Positions 3,360 to 52,574 of a DNA stretch of 64,000 nucleotides are shown piece after piece. The notes beneath the pieces were generated by a model, which searched no databases, was not told where the DNA came from, and was given only the letters and a program-made list of their open reading frames with translations. The translations under genes were made by a program, and so were the position numbers. Source of the stretch: Nitrospira sp. (GTDB taxonomy: Bacteria; Nitrospirota; Nitrospiria; Nitrospirales; Nitrospiraceae); NCBI GenBank assembly GCA_024331045.1, contig JANDJC010000008.1:7170-71169 (forward strand), in the 5' to 3' direction. How positions within the stretch are numbered: position 1 is the first letter of the stretch; each line of letters starts with the position of its first letter.

Positions 3360-5255
3360 CTAGGACACCCGCTCAGAAACCATCGGCTGAAATGTTGGCA
3401 CCACCTTCTTTAAATCTTGCAGCACGTCTTCGTCTTCACAATGAAGTAACCGATCGGGCAACTCCATGATCCATCGCTCAAGATCTCCCGACGGCAACGG
3501 CTGACTGAGCACCCGCTGAATTTTGGGATGAGGAGTTGGGACCACCTCTTCGCTCGCTTCATACAATTCCTCATAGAGTTTTTCGCCAGGCCGCAAGCCG
3601 GTATAGACAATCTGAATGTCTTTGCCTGGGACCAGACCGGATAAAACAATCATGTTCCTCGCCAAATCCACCACCTTGATCTGCTCTCCCATATCAAGCA
3701 CAAAGACATCGCCTCCCTGTCCCAGCACACTGGCTTGTAGAACAAGTTGGACCGCCTCCGGAATCGTCATGAAGAATCGCCTGATCTGCGGATCCGTCAC
3801 CGTCACTGGTCCGCCTTTGCGAATCTGCTCGGCAAAGAGAGGAACCACGCTGCCGTTACTTCCCAACACATTTCCAAATCGCACAACCGTGAACATGGTT
3901 GTGCCTGTGCCGTTGAAATTTCGTACCAGATGTTCGGCGACCCGTTTGGTCGCTCCCATCACGCTTGCTGGGTTGACCGCCTTGTCGGTCGAGATGAGCA
4001 CAAACCGCTCCACGCCGGATCTCACCGACTCTTCAGCCACCACACGAGTTCCCAGGATATTGTTCCGCACCGCTTCTTTAGGATTGAGTTCCATCAACGG
4101 CACATGTTTGTGCGCCGCCGCATGAAACACAAGATCTGGTTTGGTCTGGCGAAAGACTTCGGCCACACGATCGGGCATGGTGACATCCGCCACCACCGGG
4201 AGAACCCCAACATGGGGAAAGGCTGCTCGCAGCTCCAACAAGAGGGCATGAAGAGCATTTTCATACCGTTCGAACAGCACCAAGGATTCCGGCCGATACT
4301 GGGCAATTTGCCGGCACAGTTCCGAGCCGATCGAACCGCCGGCCCCTGTCACCAGCACGGTCTTCCCCTCCAGCAAGGGATGCAGTTCCCGGCAGTCGGC
4401 CTGAATGGGATCCCGTTGCAACAGGTCTTCGAGCTTCATCGGCCGGACCTGTTGGAGCAAGACAGGGTCGCCAAGAAGCCGTCTCACACTGGGCAAGATC
4501 TTGATAGGAACCGTGCACCCTTCTGCCGCGGCCAGAATCTTCCTCCTGATGTCAGGGGCAGCGGAGGGAATGGCCACAATGATCTCGTGGGCGCCCACAC
4601 GATCGGCCACAGCTTTCACCTCGGCCGTCGACCCCAACACGGGAATCCCATGGATCTGCATCCGCCGTTTCACCGGATCATCGTCCACAAAGGCAACCGG
4701 ACGGCAACGATAGTCGGGATCGGCGAGCATGGCGCGGGCCAACTGTTCACCCGCATTGCCGGCGCCGACGATTAAGACCTTCTTGGCAGTCGGCTCAATA
4801 ATACGGAGCCATTCCCGAAACCATCGCACAGCCAATCGGATACCGGCCAGATAAAGGGCGCTCAGCAGACCGGTGAGGATGATGACCGAGCGGGGATACG
4901 CTCTGACCCCTAAGAGAAGATGGACCAATCCATAAAAGATCACCGAGCTGGCGAGCGACGCCCAGAGAATTCTTCCCAAGTCGTGCAACCCCACATACCG
5001 CCACAGGCCCCGCTGAATACCAAACACCCAGAGACCGGCACCGAACACGAGCAAGGTCACTGGGAGATACTCCCACAGGATCCTTCGCTGGTCGCTGGGA
5101 ATATCACCATCGAATCGCAAAAGGAAGGCCGTGACATTCGCGGCAAGGATCAGGCTCAGTTGCGTGCCGACGACGAGCAGCAGCCGATGTTCAAGAAACA
5201 CCTGGCCATATCGGCTGGCGAGCGCATGGAATAATTGAGCCGTTCGTTGTTTCAT
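3360..5255 (-). CDS. Membrane-bound UDP-GlcNAc 4,6-dehydratase (PglF/WbpM/CapD family)
   Basis: N-terminal TM helices, VTGAGGSIGSELCRQ, HAAAHKHVP, ISTDKAVNP, VRFGNVLGSNGSVVP, GLRPGEKLYEEL. Confidence 0.95.
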   Translation of the reverse strand: MKQRTAQLFHALASRYGQVFLEHRLLLVVGTQLSLILAANVTAFLLRFDGDIPSDQRRILWEYLPVTLLVFGAGLWVFGIQRGLWRYVGLHDLGRILWASLASSVIFYGLVHLLLGVRAYPRSVIILTGLLSALYLAGIRLAVRWFREWLRIIEPTAKKVLIVGAGNAGEQLARAMLADPDYRCRPVAFVDDDPVKRRMQIHGIPVLGSTAEVKAVADRVGAHEIIVAIPSAAPDIRRKILAAAEGCTVPIKILPSVRRLLGDPVLLQQVRPMKLEDLLQRDPIQADCRELHPLLEGKTVLVTGAGGSIGSELCRQIAQYRPESLVLFERYENALHALLLELRAAFPHVGVLPVVADVTMPDRVAEVFRQTKPDLVFHAAAHKHVPLMELNPKEAVRNNILGTRVVAEESVRSGVERFVLISTDKAVNPASVMGATKRVAEHLVRNFNGTGTTMFTVVRFGNVLGSNGSVVPLFAEQIRKGGPVTVTDPQIRRFFMTIPEAVQLVLQASVLGQGGDVFVLDMGEQIKVVDLARNMIVLSGLVPGKDIQIVYTGLRPGEKLYEELYEASEEVVPTPHPKIQRVLSQPLPSGDLERWIMELPDRLLHCEDEDVLQDLKKVVPTFQPMVSERVS

Positions 5256-10144: not shown

Positions 10145-10868
10145 GATAGAGATATTTCCTCCTCAGCTTCTGAAGCGCAAACTTGATCCGCTGCACGAAC
10201 TTGGGAGGAGCCGGCTCCAGTGCGGAGCGAAACGTCCCGTTTTTACTCCCTTGGACCGCCACCGGCTCTTCCAACCAATAGGACGCAATGCTCTGTTCGC
10301 GATCGATCCGTTCGAACAGGTTGTCGGCGGGCAAGACAATTCCGTGCTGTTCAATCCATGACACACGCAGTTCCGCAGCCCTCCTGCCCACGATATAGGC
10401 TTCGGCCAATCGTCCTCGTGACGATCGATAGAGCCGCCGCCCCGGCACCAGCCGACTGCGCGGTGTGTACAGATTGCCCCCGCTCCCAATGAACAACACG
10501 AAGGGCTCTTCATAACCAGACGATTCCGCCAAGGCGTCCCGCACACCTTGCACAAAGCCGGGCAAGAGGATCACGTCGTCTTCCAAAATCAATGCCCGAC
10601 GCCAGTTCCGCTCGATCAGGAGACGATGGGCCTGAACATGTTTCATCGCACAGGATTGTTGCGCCGGACTTAAACCTGGCCCCTGAAGATACCGCCGCGC
10701 CGCTTCATCCTGTAAGTCCGGCACGTCATAGTCATGAATGAATTCGTAGCGAAGCCCCAGGGGGTCCAACTGGCATTCCATGTGGCGGCGGCGCTCGATA
10801 AAACTTTTGACGTTGATGACCAAAATCCCATCAAGGCCCAAATTGTCACGATTCATCGTTGCGCCCAC
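10137..10868 (-). CDS. GT25 glycosyltransferase (LOS biosynthesis, Lex/LgtB-like)
   Basis: VINV...ERR, SCAMKH, LILEDD, AYIV...AA, PAD. Confidence 0.88.
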   Translation of the reverse strand: MGATMNRDNLGLDGILVINVKSFIERRRHMECQLDPLGLRYEFIHDYDVPDLQDEAARRYLQGPGLSPAQQSCAMKHVQAHRLLIERNWRRALILEDDVILLPGFVQGVRDALAESSGYEEPFVLFIGSGGNLYTPRSRLVPGRRLYRSSRGRLAEAYIVGRRAAELRVSWIEQHGIVLPADNLFERIDREQSIASYWLEEPVAVQGSKNGTFRSALEPAPPKFVQRIKFALQKLRRKYLYRA

Positions 10869-43268: not shown

Positions 43269-44345
43269 TCACGACGACACCATGAAAAAACTCGTATATG
43301 TGCAACGAAGACCATCGGCTAATGTTGTCTTTGCCTCCCACCCCCGCGCATACAATCGGCTCACATCCAACAGTTTCCTCGGCGTCCCATCTGGTTTGCT
43401 CGTATCGAAGACGATCTCGCCTTGATAGCCGACGACATTTTTCAGCATCCCGGCCAGCTCGCGGATGGTGACATCTTCTCCCACACCAATGTTGATGAGC
43501 GGGGGCAGGCTGTCGTTACGCTCCTGCTCTAACAAAGGCAGAAATTGTTCATCCGTCAGGTTCATAAGGAACACGCAGGCATCGGCCGTGTCGTCCGAAT
43601 ACAGGAATTCCCGTCGTGGAGCACCTGTACCCCACAAGGTGACGCGGGGTGCAAGGCACCCTCGACAAATGTCAACCAACTCCTGGCGCAAGGGGGCAGG
43701 AATCTAACCATGGCAGCGCTCGTCGGCTTCGATTGTAGACCAGTTTCTTTCCGCCGCCAGCTTCGCCAAATGGAACTTGCGGATCATGGCTGGAATGACG
43801 TGGGAGGTTTCGAGGTCATAGTTGTCACCCGGACCATAGAGGTTGGTGGGCATGACGGCAAGAAACTGCGTACCGTATTGCGGGTTATAGGCCCAGCACA
43901 TCTCGATTCCTGCAATCTTCGCCACTGCATAGGGACGGTTGGTGGGCTCCAGTGGACCGGCGAGCAAATATTCCTCCTTGAGTGGCTGTGGCGCCTGTTT
44001 AGGGTAGATGCAAGAGGAGCCTAAGAAGAGAAGGCGTTTGACTCCCACACGCCAGGCCTCGTGGATGACGTTCGTCTGGATGGCGAGGTTGTCGCGGATG
44101 AATTCGGCCGGATAGGTGTCGTTGGTATGAATGCCGCCGACCTTAGTGGCGGCGAGAAAGACATATACGGACCGTTCCTGCTCAAAGAAGTTCCCTACGG
44201 CGAATGGGTCTATAAGATCGAGCTCCGCATGGCTAGGGGTGATGAGATGGGAATACCCTTTCGACGTCAGCACCCGCAGAAGGGCGGAGCCAACTAGGCC
44301 CCGGTGACCAGCAACATAGATTGCCGCGTCTCGCTCCAGGGTCAC
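43269..44345 (-). pseudogene. fcl: GDP-L-fucose synthase, in-frame TAG at 43704-43706
   Basis: [45 protein letters not shown]. The two ORFs are in the same frame and split by one stop. Confidence 0.92.
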
Positions 44346-44352
44346 CCCCTGT

Positions 44353-45443
<1,091 letters not shown>

Positions 45444-45639: not shown

Positions 45640-46056
45640 CTACCGTCCAGCGTTGACCACCTGGCGAGCCGTTTGGAGAACCAGCTCGGCACCCCGATAT
45701 GCTTGGCTGGCCTCTTGCACCGTGTATTCTTCCGTTGGAATGAAATCAATGTCTCCGTAGAAAGCCAGCTCCCATTCTTTTCGCAGCCGTTTTGAAATGT
45801 GAGCCAGATCATCAAGGACAGAGCGCACATCTTTTGGAAAGCGATCGTGAAGGTCCCGCAATAATCGTCCCACAACATGGAGCTTCGGCGGTTCAATCCC
45901 TACCGCTCGCAACATGCCTTTGAGCGCCAATTACACAAGCTCCTGCGCTTCCCAGACGACGTCCGAGCACGCTCCCTTCTTGAGCAGAAGATTGAGAACA
46001 TCCACATGGTCGGCGGCTTTCTTCAGATAGCTTCGGGCCAGCGATTCGTTGGTCAT
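45640..46056 (-). pseudogene. HEPN domain toxin, in-frame TAA at 45931-45933
   Basis: MTNESLARSYLKKA...EAQELV*LALKGMLRAVGIEPPKLH...LRKEWELAFYGD. Confidence 0.88.
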
Positions 46057-46545
46057 AGTTCAAACACCTCGCCCGGCCGAAAATCCGGCTTGAGATCCCA
46101 ATACCAGGTATTGCCCTGCCACAGACGTTTGACCCCCCGTTGGGTCAGGCGCTCTCGCAGCCGAACAAGCCGCTGAGCAAAAACCCGTCTCGGTCGTACA
46201 GGATCCGCGCATCCTCCACCATGTCTAGAAACAGCGGGCCGCCAGCCGTCACTTCTGCTGGCGTTTTCAGAACCGGCGAGAGTTCGGTATGCACACCCCC
46301 GTGGCGTGCCTGTTCGAGGTCGCCCGCGATTGCCGCTTCCACCGCCTCGAACTCTCTGACCTGATTGATTCGGCCACGTGGCACATCATGCGCGCCAATC
46401 AGAAGATCAATATCAGAGTCCTGCGCATGGCCGTCCTCCCGACGGAACCATTACAAGACAACCGAGACCAACCGGTCGCCATAGACCTCGCTGATGGCGG
46501 CAACCGCTTGATCGATCAGGGCAGCAAACGTGTCTTTCAGCAGAA
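46053..46545 (-). pseudogene. MNT nucleotidyltransferase antitoxin, frameshifted
   Basis: VYGDRLVSVVL / GSVGR / DSDIDLL / PLFLDMVEDARILYD / WYWDLKPDFRPGEVFEL*. Its stop overlaps the HEPN ATG. Confidence 0.88.
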
Positions 46546-46615
46546 TCGGACGTCTTTCAGGATCTTGATCTTGGAGCGTCAGCCGTTCCGCTGCCGATCA
46601 CACCCCCACCGACCA

Positions 46616-47161
46616 TTACTCAAACCACTCCGCCCGATCGAACGTGACCCCCTGACGGTCCTTTGAGGACAAAATTGGCGCTCCCTCCAACGGCCATGTG
46701 ATCCCGACCGTCGGATCGTTCCAGATGAGACACCGCTCGTGCTCCGGTGCGTAATAGTCGGTCGTCTTGTACAAACATTCGGCGACCTCCGACAGGACGA
46801 CAAAGCCATGCGCAAAGCCTTCTGGAATCCAGAGCTGCCGCTTGTTCTCGGCCGAGAGGATCTCACCGACCCACTGTCCAAATGTCGGCGACGAGCGGCG
46901 CAGATCAACCGCCACGTCGAAGACGGCTCCCACTACGATGCGCACCAACTTCCCCTGCGGTTGCCGAATCTGATAATGCAACCCCCGCAAGACTCCCTTA
47001 ACCGATCGGGAGTGGTTGTCTTGGACAAAGGTGATGGGTTTGCCGATCGCCGCCTCGAAACGAGCCTGGTTGAAACTCTCAAAGAAAAACCCCCGGTCAT
47101 CTCCGAAGACCTGTGGTTCAAGCAAAACCACATCGGGAATGGCAAGTGGCGTGGCCCGCAT
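46616..47161 (-). CDS. rfbC: dTDP-4-dehydrorhamnose 3,5-epimerase
   Basis: DDRGFFFE, VQDNHS, LRGLHYQ, GFAHGF, LSSKD. Confidence 0.97.
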   Translation of the reverse strand: MRATPLAIPDVVLLEPQVFGDDRGFFFESFNQARFEAAIGKPITFVQDNHSRSVKGVLRGLHYQIRQPQGKLVRIVVGAVFDVAVDLRRSSPTFGQWVGEILSAENKRQLWIPEGFAHGFVVLSEVAECLYKTTDYYAPEHERCLIWNDPTVGITWPLEGAPILSSKDRQGVTFDRAEWFE

Positions 47162-47189
47162 CAGAACACGTTTTCTTTGATGATCCGCA
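47133..47189. repeat. 57-bp direct repeat, copy 1 (rfbA/rfbC junction duplicate)
   Basis: tcgggaatggcaagtggcgtggcccgcatcagaacacgttttctttgatgatccgca, identical to 47866-47922. Confidence 0.97.
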
Positions 47190-47268
47190 TGTCGATCGTG
47201 ACACTGCCGTATGGCTTTGCATTCAGATCTTTCTCGATATGTCCCTGACGATGACCAGACAGACTCAT
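47161..47268 (-). other. 35-aa linker ORF ending in the duplicated RfbA C-terminus
   Basis: [38 protein letters not shown] overlaps the DUF2283 stop (ATGA) and TGA overlaps the rfbC ATG (TGATG). Confidence 0.55.
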
Positions 47269-47507
47269 GTCAAGTCTTGTGCCCGAAGAGCAATCTCTTG
47301 GCGTTTTCCTGCCAATTCCAGAATCAGATTTCCTCTATCTTCCGCCAACTGCTCGTTGGCGTTGAGAAGCTCAATGCCGTAGACGGTCCCGTCTGGTGCC
47401 ACATCAACATTCATCTCGTCGCTGATCTTAAGGGTGGTCACCGGAGCCGTTTTCTCGTGGAGTCGGATATACGCAACATTGTACGCAGGATCGTATGTCA
47501 GCCTCAT
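47265..47507 (-). CDS. DUF2283 protein (putative antitoxin)
   Basis: MRLTYDPAYNVAYIRL...VDVAPDGTVYGIELLNA signature. GGAG RBS. Confidence 0.88.
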   Translation of the reverse strand: MRLTYDPAYNVAYIRLHEKTAPVTTLKISDEMNVDVAPDGTVYGIELLNANEQLAEDRGNLILELAGKRQEIALRAQDLT

Positions 47508-47522
47508 TTCGCGGTCTCCGAA

Positions 47523-47774
47523 TTAGAAATATTTCACGAGTACCGTAATGACGACCCAGTCGCTCCCCTCCTGCACAGCATAGGCTTCTATCTGCCTGTT
47601 TGCATAGATCTTTCCTTGCCAGGTCCCCGCAAACGGGAAGTTGCGGCGAAAGCCTATTCGACCGAACTTCGCCTGAAAACGCTCGCCGGTCTCCACGCTC
47701 AGCCTCACCTCTTCCTCCGTCCCACCTCGTTCTCGTAGTCGTTCCAACGCGTGAGGATGCAGTCGAACAGCCAT
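47523..47774 (-). CDS. DUF4258 protein (putative RelE-like toxin)
   Basis: HPHALERLRERG..EEEV...WVVITV signature. Confidence 0.82.
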   Translation of the reverse strand: MAVRLHPHALERLRERGGTEEEVRLSVETGERFQAKFGRIGFRRNFPFAGTWQGKIYANRQIEAYAVQEGSDWVVITVLVKYF

Positions 47775-47789
47775 TGGCGCTCTTTTAGT

Positions 47790-47894
47790 CTAATCGCATG
47801 AAAACAACTCCGCTTCCCTTAACCGCGCATGTCTCTTCGACCATTTTCCGACAGGGGACCGTTCGTCGGGAATGGCAAGTGGCGTGGCCCGCAT
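47790..47894 (-). other. 34-aa leader ORF beginning with the duplicated RfbC N-terminus
   Basis: [37 protein letters not shown] overlaps the rfbA TGA and the stop lies 15 nt before the DUF4258 ATG. Confidence 0.5.
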
Positions 47895-47922
47895 CAGAAC
47901 ACGTTTTCTTTGATGATCCGCA
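47866..47922. repeat. 57-bp direct repeat, copy 2
   Basis: Identical to 47133-47189. Confidence 0.97.
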
Positions 47923-48820
47923 GCAGATACTGGCCGTAGCCGTTTTTGGCCAACGGTTGCGCTAGCCGTTCCACTTGAGCCGCATCAATCCAGCCCTGCC
48001 GATAGGCGATCTCCTCAGGACAGGCTACCTTGAGGCCCTGGCGGTGTTCCAGCGTGGCGATAAACTGGCCGGCATCCAACAATGACTCATGGGTGCCAGT
48101 ATCAAGCCACGCATAGCCCCGCCCCATGACCTCCACATGCAGCAACCCCTCTTGCAGATACAGCCGATTGAGATCCGTAATCTCTAACTCGCCACGGGCG
48201 GACGGTTTGAGACGCTTGGCGTACTCGACCACCCGTCGATCATAGAAATACAGACCGGTCACGGCATAGTTCGATTTGGGCCTCTGGGGTTTTTCCTCCA
48301 GTGACAAAACCCTGCCCTGCCCATTGAATTCGGCAACGCCATACCGTTCTGGGTCCTGCACATGGTAGGCAAAGATCGTGGCTCCGTCGGTGCGGGCCAT
48401 TGCGCTGTCCAGCAACCGTTGAAAATCATGGCCGTAGAAAATGTTGTCCCCCAGTACCAAGACTGAGGCATCATCCCCTATAAATGATTCACCGATTAAA
48501 AAGGCCTGCGCCAATCCATCCGGAGACGGCTGAACCGCATAGTGAATCCTTATTCCCCACTGATCACCTCTACCAAGAAGCTGTTCAAACCGTGGCGTAT
48601 CCTGAGGGGTGGAAATGACGAGTATCTCTCTGATCCCCGCTAACATCAGCGTGCTGAGGGGATAGTAAATCATCGGCTTATCGAACACCGGCAACAACTG
48701 TTTGCTGATCGATAGAGTGGCCGGATGGAGCCTGGTGCCGGCTCCCCCGGCGAGAATGATACCTTTCCGCTTCACCGTTTGGCCTACGCGATCTCCCTTG
48801 CCCATTGAGTTTTTCTCCAC
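47894..48820 (-). CDS. rfbA: Glucose-1-phosphate thymidylyltransferase
   Basis: [40 protein letters not shown]. Confidence 0.97.
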
Positions 48821-51853: not shown

Positions 51854-52252
51854 TCAAGACGCAAGGCCGGCTATGTATCGATCAACGGCCGCTACGAACT
51901 CGTCCGCCTCTTGGACGGCGCGACGCGCGGTTTCTTCGTCCAAGTAGGACAAGGCGTCGTAGTCGCCGGTTTCGCGATCGTCTTTCAGGTTGCTCAACAG
52001 CTTTCCCCACCGTTTGTCCAGCTTGCCGGTTTTCACCAGCAACAGGCCGAACAGGGTCACAACACCCTTGTGGGGATCCGCGCATTGTCCTTCCGTCAAG
52101 AGAGCCGCCTGCGCCGCGTGGTAGGCGGCATAGTAGGCGCGGGAAATCGCGTCGTCCCACTCTCCCTTGGCGTACAGGTCGCGGGCCACCCGCGACTTCT
52201 CGCGCGCCTTGGCCAGATAGCCGCGGATGAGTTCCTGTTGCGCCCTATCCAA
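51854..52252 (-). CDS. HEPN domain protein (UPF0332-type), intact
   Basis: AISRAYYAAYHA, HKGV...FG, RETGDY. Confidence 0.9.
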   Translation of the reverse strand: MDRAQQELIRGYLAKAREKSRVARDLYAKGEWDDAISRAYYAAYHAAQAALLTEGQCADPHKGVVTLFGLLLVKTGKLDKRWGKLLSNLKDDRETGDYDALSYLDEETARRAVQEADEFVAAVDRYIAGLAS

Positions 52253-52574
52253 TGAGCACTCCTTCCCGATTCACGTGCTCCATGAAGGGACTCTTCAACG
52301 ATTGCAATCTGGAAAACTCCCGTTCCGGAAACACCTTCAACGACACCAACCGCCCGTGCTCCAACAGGATGTCCATCACCGCGTCATAGAGGACATCGAA
52401 CAACGCGTCATCTTTCCGAGAGACGACAAGGAGCACGTCATAATCCGAGTCGGATCGATGGGTTCCCCTGGCGCGTGAACCAAACAGGACGATCCGTTTG
52501 ATCAACGGACGGACTGAAGCGATTCGTTCCAAGAACGCACGGAGGATGGGATCCGACTCAATCGATGCAGTCAC
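52245..52574 (-). CDS. MNT nucleotidyltransferase antitoxin, intact
   Basis: LFGSRARG....DSDYD (GS-x10-DxD). Overlaps the HEPN start. Confidence 0.92.
   Translation of the reverse strand: MTASIESDPILRAFLERIASVRPLIKRIVLFGSRARGTHRSDSDYDVLLVVSRKDDALFDVLYDAVMDILLEHGRLVSLKVFPEREFSRLQSLKSPFMEHVNREGVLIG

What the first reader, a model, noticed from the sequence alone, without database searches (positions are those of the whole stretch)
47133..47922. TA-like cassette inserted inside a perfect 57-bp duplication of the rfbA/rfbC junction
Seen: DUF4258-DUF2283 is flanked by identical 57-bp repeats (47133-47189, 47866-47922) made of the last ~9 codons of rfbA and the first ~9 codons of rfbC. Both host genes remain intact, and removing 733 bp restores a normal TGATG junction. 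Known: IS target-site duplications are usually 2-14 bp, whereas long duplications resemble attL/attR of integrative elements. No integrase, transposase or terminal inverted repeat is visible. Inference: a minimal non-autonomous circle integrated by recombination at a conserved sugar-gene junction. The perfect identity suggests it is recent, and it may still excise.
Basis: partly seen in the sequence, partly recalled or inferred. Interest (0 to 1): 0.85.

Follow-up and report, generated by a model that had tools for sequence, protein, structure and literature searches.

The report
Toxin cassette riding duplicated gene junction
A two-gene, likely toxin-antitoxin cassette sits between two copies of a 59-base sugar-gene junction in five related hot-spring-type bacterial species; the copies likely serve as built-in handles for ordinary homologous recombination, so the cassette would spread between species without any enzyme of its own.

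Summary
The repeat is real (57/57; 58/59 against the empty junction of relative G023), unique in the genome and no assembly artefact. The insertion is not recent. The same insert, with the same breakpoints, is in five species of the genus (cores 73-95% identical to the window's). Strains of the window's own species carry copies differing at 1 or 3 bases, so the perfect match was likely produced later, by recombination between the copies. The core is far closer across species than housekeeping genes (94.5% versus gyrB 76.7%), which points to horizontal transfer. Homologous cassettes sit between long, variable duplications of at least eight unrelated gene ends. Relatives stack several toxin-antitoxin cassettes behind rfbC or wecB, each followed by a copy of the gene tail. 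There is no integrase, terminal repeat or evidence of a circle. DUF4258 has a RelE/BrnT-like fold and is predicted to bind DUF2283. This works like 'insertion with long target duplication', published for restriction-modification genes, here with toxin-antitoxin cargo. The scan noted similar architecture earlier in other genomes. How the first duplication arose is unresolved.

The parts
47894..48820 (-). rfbA (glucose-1-phosphate thymidylyltransferase), intact host gene upstream
   Evidence: ORF; TIGR01207 over cut-off
47864..47922 (-). Copy A of the 59-bp duplicated junction: working rfbA tail and stop, plus an unused rfbC head. The perfect 57-bp part is 47866-47922
47790..47894 (-). 34-codon reading frame that starts at the duplicated rfbC ATG and ends 15 nt before DUF4258; open in G000, G085 and G015, 24 codons in G018; role untested
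47523..47774 (-). DUF4258 protein, 83 aa, RelE/BrnT-like (BECR) fold, predicted RNase toxin
   Evidence: Pfam; model pLDDT 97; fold search
47265..47507 (-). DUF2283 protein, 80 aa, predicted antitoxin that covers the conserved face of DUF4258
   Evidence: Pfam; complex prediction; pairing in 56 of 75 homologous loci with enough upstream DNA
47161..47268 (-). 35-codon reading frame overlapping the DUF2283 stop and running in frame through the duplicated rfbA tail to the TGATG of rfbC; open in 4 of 4 full carriers; possible translational relay, not significant on its own
   Evidence: chance of staying open 0.59
47131..47189 (-). Copy B of the 59-bp duplicated junction: unused rfbA tail plus working rfbC start. 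The perfect 57-bp part is 47133-47189
47190..47863 (-). 674-bp unique core of the insert; no terminal inverted repeats, no promoter- or terminator-like consensus hit, single copy in the genome
46616..47161 (-). rfbC (dTDP-4-dehydrorhamnose 3,5-epimerase), intact host gene downstream
   Evidence: ORF; TIGR01221
46920..48020 (.). Approximate tract of raised identity to G085 (88-97% per 100 bp, against about 80% over most of the window): core plus 100-200 bp of each flank; read as a horizontally acquired tract

Best explanation
A likely toxin-antitoxin pair (DUF4258-DUF2283) is inserted between two copies of the 59-bp rfbA/rfbC junction; it is shared at identical breakpoints by five species and likely spreads by the host's homologous recombination, with the duplicated junction acting as a built-in homology arm. 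Step 1 (inferred, mechanism untested): a single illegitimate event, probably a template switch or repair event during DNA uptake, put the cassette in and re-copied 59 bp. Insertions that span gene ends survive because the host genes stay whole. Step 2 (transfer shown by incongruent identities, route inferred): linear DNA carrying host gene + cassette + duplicated end recombines into relatives by a double crossover, probably after natural transformation (comEC and dprA are present). Because the duplicated end is itself homologous to the recipient's gene end, no shared downstream gene is needed and units can stack into arrays. Step 3 (polymorphism shown, direction inferred from outgroups): recombination between the copies, or with a working junction, overwrote two bases of the unused rfbC head in copy A and gave today's perfect match. 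Step 4 (inferred): pop-out between the repeats is possible, and toxin-antitoxin addiction would penalise it.
For: Same insert and breakpoints in G000, G085, G015, G018 and (cut by a contig end) G082, out of 134 genus genomes searched. Of 24 loci with both gene ends, 12 have the direct junction, 4 this insert and 8 other spacers or inserts. Transfer: gyrB G000/G085 is 76.7% but the core 94.5%; G018/G082 gyrB is 75.0% but their cores are 100% identical over the overlap and rfbA 99.5%. Fourfold-site differences G000/G085: core 7/73, rfbA 3' half 22/71, rfbC 29/80, rfbB 73/153 (Fisher p 0.002, 1e-4, 7e-9). Homogenisation: both G000 copies share two silent changes. Copy A of G085, G015, G018 and G082 and the empty G023 junction lack them. 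Strains in runs X6 and X11 (two studies) have the older bases at 47871 and 47880. No fixed target: homologous cassettes sit between duplications of 35-231 bp at the ends of GreA/B, Aldedh (proA-like), CCG/Fe-S, FTCD, HicB-like, MoxR-like, Memo-like and UDP-GlcNAc 2-epimerase (wecB) genes. Tight flanking repeats occur in 8 of 64 eligible genome loci, against 0 of 400 random G000 windows and 3 of 117 neighbouring positions (p 9e-8 and 0.018), and in 4 of 25 eligible metagenome loci. Arrays: four rfbC-tail copies in G085 separate VapBC, AAA_14-DUF4143, PIN and nucleotidyltransferase-HEPN cassettes; four wecB-tail copies occur in G057. Copy boundaries differ between cassettes (-99 to -140 from the stop for rfbC, -159 to -248 for wecB) but stay with a given cassette across genomes. 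Second site in this genome (contig C109, methylase tail): G000 is G023-like on both sides but G085-like from the start of the second tail copy, and that copy is perfect, whereas in G023 and G084 it is diverged. comEC and dprA are in 5 of 5 genomes. Toxin-antitoxin nature: best fold matches are RelE (Z 7.7, rmsd 2.7, 68 aligned) and BrnT (Z 7.1); complex score 0.63 against best control 0.01, contacts at least 90% in agreement, partner pLDDT at least 78; that mark was reached by 116 of 157 solved and 2 of 215 mismatched pairs.
Against: Most homologous cassettes have no tight flanking repeat (56 of 64 and 21 of 25), including the closest outside relatives that had enough flank (L207-L209, 77-78% aa). 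Of the 8 genome hits only 3 are clear host-gene tails; 1 is intergenic and 4 are multicopy or REP-like segments. Nothing here shows how the first duplication arose. The X6 and X11 variants lie on contigs of depth 3.7 and 4.5, and some of their other alleles match G015 or G018, so these strains may themselves be recombinants. G018 and G082 carry the locus on 8.5- and 10-kb contigs, which could be misbinned. Array copies do not decay strictly with distance (G085 87, 84, 79, 88%; G057 87, 89, 80, 83%). Competence genes are nearly universal (10 and 11 of 14 control genomes) and do not prove transformation. Fold Z-scores under 8 are modest. Toxicity is untested, and DUF4258 has an in-frame stop in G018.
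Confidence: 0.6

Rival explanations
1. One reading: the unit travels as a 733-bp non-replicating circle that pops out between the repeats and integrates by a single crossover at the 59-bp junction of another cell.
For: The geometry allows it. The raised identity to G085 is centred on the core. G023, sister to carrier G085 at gyrB (97.5%), has a clean empty junction that could be a precise excision. The copies do recombine with each other.
Against: A simple out-and-in cycle swaps segments between the copies and does not make them identical (reasoning). 59 bp is short for a single crossover (general knowledge). Long stretches of flank moved together with the core (G018/G082 97-98% over about 7.3 kb). 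Core and flank depth are equal in the deepest run (315 against 314 and 313), though contig depth is a poor measure.
Confidence: 0.15
2. A dedicated enzyme acting in trans (an IS1549/IS1634-type transposase or an unknown factor) inserts such cassettes and makes long, variable target duplications each time.
For: Duplications are long, variable and at unrelated genes. IS1549 and IS1634 make 8-514-bp duplications by an unknown route (PMC2266710, passages). A broken IS1634-type transposase is in G018. Some enzyme or repair route must explain the first insertion.
Against: No terminal inverted repeats and no shared end motif seen in 9 bracketed cores (3-10 of 30 matches). The core is single-copy. No IS1634 match in G000, G085 or G015 (80-88% complete). 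The same breakpoints recur across species rather than new sites within the genus.
Confidence: 0.12
3. One old insertion was inherited vertically with occasional gene conversion; the apparent transfer comes from misbinned contigs.
For: Breakpoints are identical in all carriers. Two carriers lie on short contigs.
Against: The window's contig is 72 kb and about 80% identical to G085 and G023 over most of its length, while the core is 94.5% identical to G085's. The contrast lies within one contig, and G085's contig is 585 kb.
Confidence: 0.07
4. The cassette is the remnant of a larger integrative element or prophage whose attL/attR are the repeats and which lost its integrase.
For: Integrative elements often duplicate gene ends (general knowledge). 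One homologue lies between tRNA-like repeats 3.1 kb apart (L107).
Against: All carriers have the same 733-734-bp unit, and no larger form was seen. At least eight different target genes would each need their own integrase and the same precise shrinkage. The viral collection gave only 1 weak 18-residue hit. Tyrosine recombinase matches in G000 lie on other contigs.
Confidence: 0.06

Closest known systems
Insertion with long target duplication of restriction-modification genes (Nobusato et al. 2000, seen only as a reference entry; Furuta, Abe and Kobayashi 2010, PMC2853133: abstract, introduction, section 15, discussion and passages read)
   Same: Small insert, duplication over 30 bp and variable in length, empty site in a relative, no mobility gene, repeats spanning a start or stop so the target gene stays intact, cargo that is probably addictive. 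The paper also notes that most examples are in naturally competent species.
   Different: The cargo is a predicted RNase toxin-antitoxin pair, so the paper's suggestion that DNA breakage by the cargo drives insertion does not obviously apply. Added here: inter-species transfer at fixed breakpoints, within-species homogenisation of the copies, and stacking into arrays.
Minimal mobile elements of Neisseria (definition read in passages of PMC3787668; Saunders and Snyder 2002 seen only as a reference entry)
   Same: Variable content between conserved genes, spread by homologous recombination in the flanks, distribution at odds with the species tree. The rfbA/rfbC junction holds different inserts in different genomes.
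   Different: The definition read does not involve a target duplication; here the duplication supplies a homology arm and would allow additive stacking.
IS1549/IS1634 long variable direct repeats (PMC2266710, passages)
   Same: Long, variable-length duplications with no mechanistic model.
   Different: No transposase, no terminal inverted repeats, single copy.
Integrons and tRNA-anchored island arrays (recalled, not read)
   Same: Arrays of small toxin-antitoxin or defence cassettes separated by a repeated site.
   Different: The repeated site is a plain copy of a protein gene's tail with cassette-specific boundaries; no integrase or attC-type site was seen or is required by the model (attC was not searched for).
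Type II toxin-antitoxin modules with BECR-fold toxins (PMC11980606 and bioRxiv 10.64898/2026.08.28.747851, passages)
   Same: DUF4258 is listed there as a BECR family of unknown activity (RelE/ParE superfamily in the first, Colicin-like branch in the second).
   Different: Neither main text mentions DUF2283. Here the order is toxin first, and DUF2283 is the predicted partner.

Membership tests
Insertion with long target duplication (Furuta 2010 criteria) | Target duplication longer than 30 bp, matching a single site in an empty relative | tested here: met
   59 bp; the G023 junction differs from the two window copies at 2 and 3 positions
Insertion with long target duplication (Furuta 2010 criteria) | Insert under 20 kb with no other mobile-element gene | tested here: met
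   674-bp core with two small genes
Insertion with long target duplication (Furuta 2010 criteria) | Duplication length and target vary between insertions | tested here: met
   35-231 bp at eight or more different gene ends
Insertion with long target duplication (Furuta 2010 criteria) | Insert carries restriction and modification gene homologues | tested here: not met
   Cargo is DUF4258-DUF2283; filed as working like the class, not as a member of the RM set
Minimal mobile element | Variable gene content between conserved flanking genes among relatives | tested here: met
   24 junctions: 12 direct, 4 this insert, 8 other spacers or inserts
Minimal mobile element | Spread by homologous recombination in the flanks (incongruent with species tree) | tested here: met
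   Core and flank identities against gyrB; the route of DNA uptake is not shown
Insertion sequence / MITE | Terminal inverted repeats | tested here: not met
   3 of 30 terminal bases match; no inverted repeat at the core ends
Insertion sequence / MITE | Own transposase, or multiple copies if non-autonomous | tested here: not met
   No transposase in the core; single copy in an 85%-complete genome
IS1549/IS1634 long-repeat elements acting in trans | Cognate transposase in the genome | tested here: inconclusive
   No match in G000, G085 or G015 (incomplete); broken copy in G018
Integrative element (attL/attR) | Integrase in or beside the element | tested here: not met
   None in the core; PF00589 matches of G000 are on other contigs. 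Serine recombinases were not searched for
Integrative element (attL/attR) | One preferred attachment site for the family | tested here: not met
   Unrelated targets and variable boundaries
Integrative element (attL/attR) | Excised circular form | tested here: inconclusive
   Only contigs covered the site; the raw-read run had no reads
Type II toxin-antitoxin module | Two small adjacent co-oriented genes conserved as a pair | tested here: met
   Paired in 56 of 75 loci with enough upstream DNA
Type II toxin-antitoxin module | Toxin of a known toxin fold | tested here: met
   Top ranks are RelE, BrnT and ParE-type toxins, Z 6.5-7.7; modest scores
Type II toxin-antitoxin module | Direct protein-protein binding | tested here: inconclusive
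   Prediction passes (0.63 against control 0.01); it supports but does not show binding
Type II toxin-antitoxin module | Toxicity and neutralisation in cells | not testable with these tools
   Needs expression tests

The most novel reading that the evidence does not exclude
These bacteria run an integrase-free, integron-like cassette system. Copies of the tails of surface-polysaccharide and methylase genes act as recombination anchors; each 'cassette + gene tail' unit is a portable module that RecA adds behind the gene in any relative; arrays of toxin-antitoxin and defence cassettes grow, collapse and are swapped between species about 23% diverged at gyrB. The window's insert is a one-cassette, double-sided case.
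Probability: 0.45. Interest if true: 0.72.

Novelty: new variant of a known kind. Interest (0 to 1): 0.5.

Why it matters
Chromosomal toxin-antitoxin modules are patchy and usually lack mobility genes, and 'insertion with long target duplication' was still without a demonstrated life cycle in the 2010 paper read. This locus supplies what such cases usually lack: an empty site, five carrier species, within-species variants that catch the repeat copies being homogenised, a second site in the same genome where a crossover maps to the duplicated tail, and multi-cassette arrays. Together these give a simple, testable idea: the duplication is a portable homology arm. It also shows that identical flanking repeats cannot be used to date such an insertion. 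DUF2283 gains a predicted role as the antitoxin of a BECR-fold DUF4258 RNase.

Tried and rejected
Circle or empty-site detection: 8 of 24 listed runs were laid. The raw-read run X21 had no reads on the locus, and contigs cannot span the repeat, so there was no test. Terminal inverted repeats or shared end motifs: none seen in 9 cores. Origin of the two spacers: matches only in carriers among all loci fetched up to then and in the genus search. Promoter or terminator consensus in 47100-48000: none. The 35-codon frame as a conserved coupling device: 16 substitutions would leave it open 59% of the time, so this is not evidence. DUF2283 fold: best Z 4.5 (a CdiI immunity protein), not distinguishable from background. 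Foldseek for DUF4258: no match at E 0.001 or better. NCBIfam: no family for either cassette protein. Phage vector: one weak 18-residue hit in viral contigs. Other gene-tail duplications among 62 minus-strand ORF ends in the window: only this one, apart from three weak scores, one of them a match between two similar gene ends. rpoB as species marker: missing from G000 and G085, so gyrB alone was used. Literature: five searches combining toxin-antitoxin or transformation terms with duplication or array terms gave nothing on point (the two reviews that I opened cite the concept only in their reference lists); one search gave one unrelated paper. The library lacks most subscription papers, and no supplements were opened.

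Full report
Observation. The two 57-nt copies are identical and 733 bp apart. They span the rfbA stop and the rfbC start; both genes are open and correctly named. The complete genome G023 of the same genus has the single junction. Against it the duplication is 59 bp, and the window's copies differ at one silent position, 58. Single contigs from three independent studies run from one copy to the other through the core, so the structure is real. The genus is probably Nitrospira (inferred from the likeness of same-genus loci to titled records). Most runs that hold the stretch are hot-spring metagenomes.

The cargo. The core holds DUF4258 and DUF2283, paired in 56 of 75 homologous loci with enough upstream DNA. 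The DUF4258 model (pLDDT 97) matches RelE, BrnT and ParE-type toxins at Z 6.5-7.7, in line with its listing as an uncharacterised BECR family (PMC11980606 and the 2026 bioRxiv preprint, passages). The predicted complex scores 0.63 against a best control of 0.01, with contacts at least 90% in agreement and partner pLDDT at least 78. That mark was reached by 116 of 157 solved and 2 of 215 mismatched pairs. The interface covers the conserved H6, H8, R12, R16 and T77. A toxin-antitoxin role is therefore likely but untested.

It is not a recent insertion. Among 134 genus genomes, the insert lies at the same breakpoints in G000, G085, G015, G018 and, cut by a contig end, G082. Cores are 94.5, 92.7, 76.0 and 72.5% identical to the window's, and G018's toxin has an in-frame stop. 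The copies differ at 1, 5, 7 and 8 of 59 positions in G000, G085, G015 and G018. Of 35 loci examined, 24 had both gene ends: 12 direct junctions, 4 with this insert, 4 with another gene of about 490-550 bp and 4 with short spacers.

The perfect match is derived. Both window copies carry two silent changes that are absent from copy A of all four other carriers and from the G023 junction. Near-identical strains in runs X6 and X11 (two studies; contig depth 3.7 and 4.5) have the older bases at 47871 and 47880 and a further change at 47150. Strains in X1, X3, X8 and X14 differ at 47165, and X2's core contig shows no difference. So the unused rfbC head in copy A was likely overwritten from a working rfbC head, over a tract that stops short of position 58. 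Gene conversion, amplification and collapse, or recombination with an empty junction could each do this; a plain excision and re-integration would swap segments and not equalise them (reasoning). A caveat: some X6 and X11 alleles match G015 or G018, so they may be recombinants, but the outgroups give the same direction.

It moves between species with its flanks. gyrB of G000 is 76-77% identical to G085, G015, G018 and G023 and 90% to G082. Most of the window is about 80% identical to G085 and G023, yet the core differs from G085 at 7 of 73 fourfold sites, against 22 of 71, 29 of 80 and 73 of 153 in the rfbA 3' half, rfbC and rfbB. rfbC of G000 follows G023 at most informative sites, so the locus is a mosaic of several events. 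G018 and G082 share about 7.3 kb at 97-98% despite 75% at gyrB, though both contigs are short and could be misbinned. comEC and dprA are present in 5 of 5 genomes, which permits but does not prove transformation.

The pattern is general but not universal. Of 80 DUF2283 loci from other taxa, 64 had 400 nt on both sides, and 8 of these had tight flanking repeats, against 0 of 400 random windows and 3 of 117 neighbouring positions. Three of the 8 are host-gene tails, one is intergenic and four are multicopy segments. Of 48 metagenome loci, 25 were eligible and 4 were tightly bracketed. Looser or shorter loci add GreA/B, FTCD and wecB tails. Targets are unrelated, lengths run from 35 to 231 bp, and in the GreA/B case the cassette faces the host gene. 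Most homologues, including the closest with enough flank (L207-L209), show no repeat.

Arrays and a second site point to the duplication as a homology arm. G085 has four copies of the rfbC tail separating VapBC, AAA_14-DUF4143, PIN and nucleotidyltransferase-HEPN cassettes; G008, G023, G069 and G097 have one or two. G057, G063 and G094 have wecB-tail arrays (L046 was not counted separately). Each cassette keeps its own tail boundary across genomes, and in one case appears at different array positions, which fits a unit of 'cassette + tail' and not a fixed recombinase site. On contig C109 of this genome a methylase tail is duplicated perfectly over 57 bp around tcmP-DUF5131. G023 and G084 have that cassette with a diverged second tail, and G085 lacks it. 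G000 is G023-like on both sides but G085-like from the first bases of the second tail through the following DUF4160 cassette. There the perfect copy was apparently supplied by a crossover at the tail.

Mechanism. Shown: structure, age, polymorphism, incongruent identities, variable targets, arrays. Inferred: RecA-type double crossover of linear DNA using the duplicated end as one arm, uptake by transformation, retention by addiction, and selection for duplications that span gene ends. Unknown: the first, illegitimate event. Rivals are the circle route (0.15), a trans-acting long-duplication transposase (0.12), vertical descent with misbinning (0.07) and a shrunken integrative element (0.06).

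Relation to what is known. [quoted passage not shown] PMC3457768 (passages) notes the mechanism for 'other DNAs' too and offers tandem duplication plus recombination as an alternative route. My searches found no paper describing it for toxin-antitoxin cassettes or gene-tail arrays, within an open-access library. Earlier, unchecked notes of this scan report the same architecture with other cargo; they are leads, not support. Verdict: real, a new variant of a known kind, interest 0.5.

Noticed in passing
G000:C109:42137-42193 and 44118-44174 (L193, L194): Second perfect 57-bp duplication in this genome: a methylase gene tail flanks tcmP-DUF5131 and is followed by a DUF4160-type toxin cassette. 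G085 lacks the cassette; G023 and G084 have it with a diverged second tail.
   Followed up: yes
L154:1288-6450 (G085); L026:7796-11177 (G008); L021:10847-11923 (G023): Arrays of toxin-antitoxin and ATPase cassettes behind rfbC, each followed by a copy of the rfbC tail. G008 also has a perfect 43-bp repeat at 10153 and 11135 around DUF433-DUF5615, cut by the contig end.
   Followed up: partly
L160:8358-12764 (G057); L159; L161; L045: wecB-tail arrays carrying DUF2442, DUF433-DUF5615, PIN, DUF4258-DUF2283 and ParE-like cassettes.
   Followed up: partly
L029:2036-3831: In a record titled Burkholderiales, the closest outside DUF2283 (82% aa) lies alone between rfbA and rfbC, the same junction, without toxin and without a detectable repeat. 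It may be a decayed version of the same insert across phyla.
   Followed up: partly
L169, L170, L176, L177 (G008, G069, G048, G014): A different gene of about 117 aa (four-helix-bundle-like; label recalled, not scanned) with low-complexity flanks occupies the same rfbA/rfbC junction, with no long duplication detected.
   Followed up: no
window 43269-45400: The gmd-like and fcl-like genes (labels recalled) are broken into several short reading frames, and the nucleotidyltransferase-HEPN pair at about 45640-46580 also appears interrupted, whereas G085 has an intact pair.
   Followed up: no
window 51854-52574: Another intact nucleotidyltransferase-HEPN pair in the same polysaccharide cluster, with no flanking duplication found.
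   Followed up: partly
window 46404, run X1: The high-depth strain in X1 diverges from the window just downstream of rfbC, inside the nucleotidyltransferase gene, so that slot varies within the species.
   Followed up: no
L074:99-903 and L215: Cassette facing a greA/greB gene with a 103/104 duplication; a TATAAT hexamer begins exactly at the junction. In L097 the same hexamer ends exactly at the other junction. Not tested against chance.
   Followed up: no
G000:C107:1-127 and 4105-4231: Perfect 127-bp repeat at a contig start, 4.1 kb apart, within what looks like a gene end; it could be a third case or an assembly edge.
   Followed up: no
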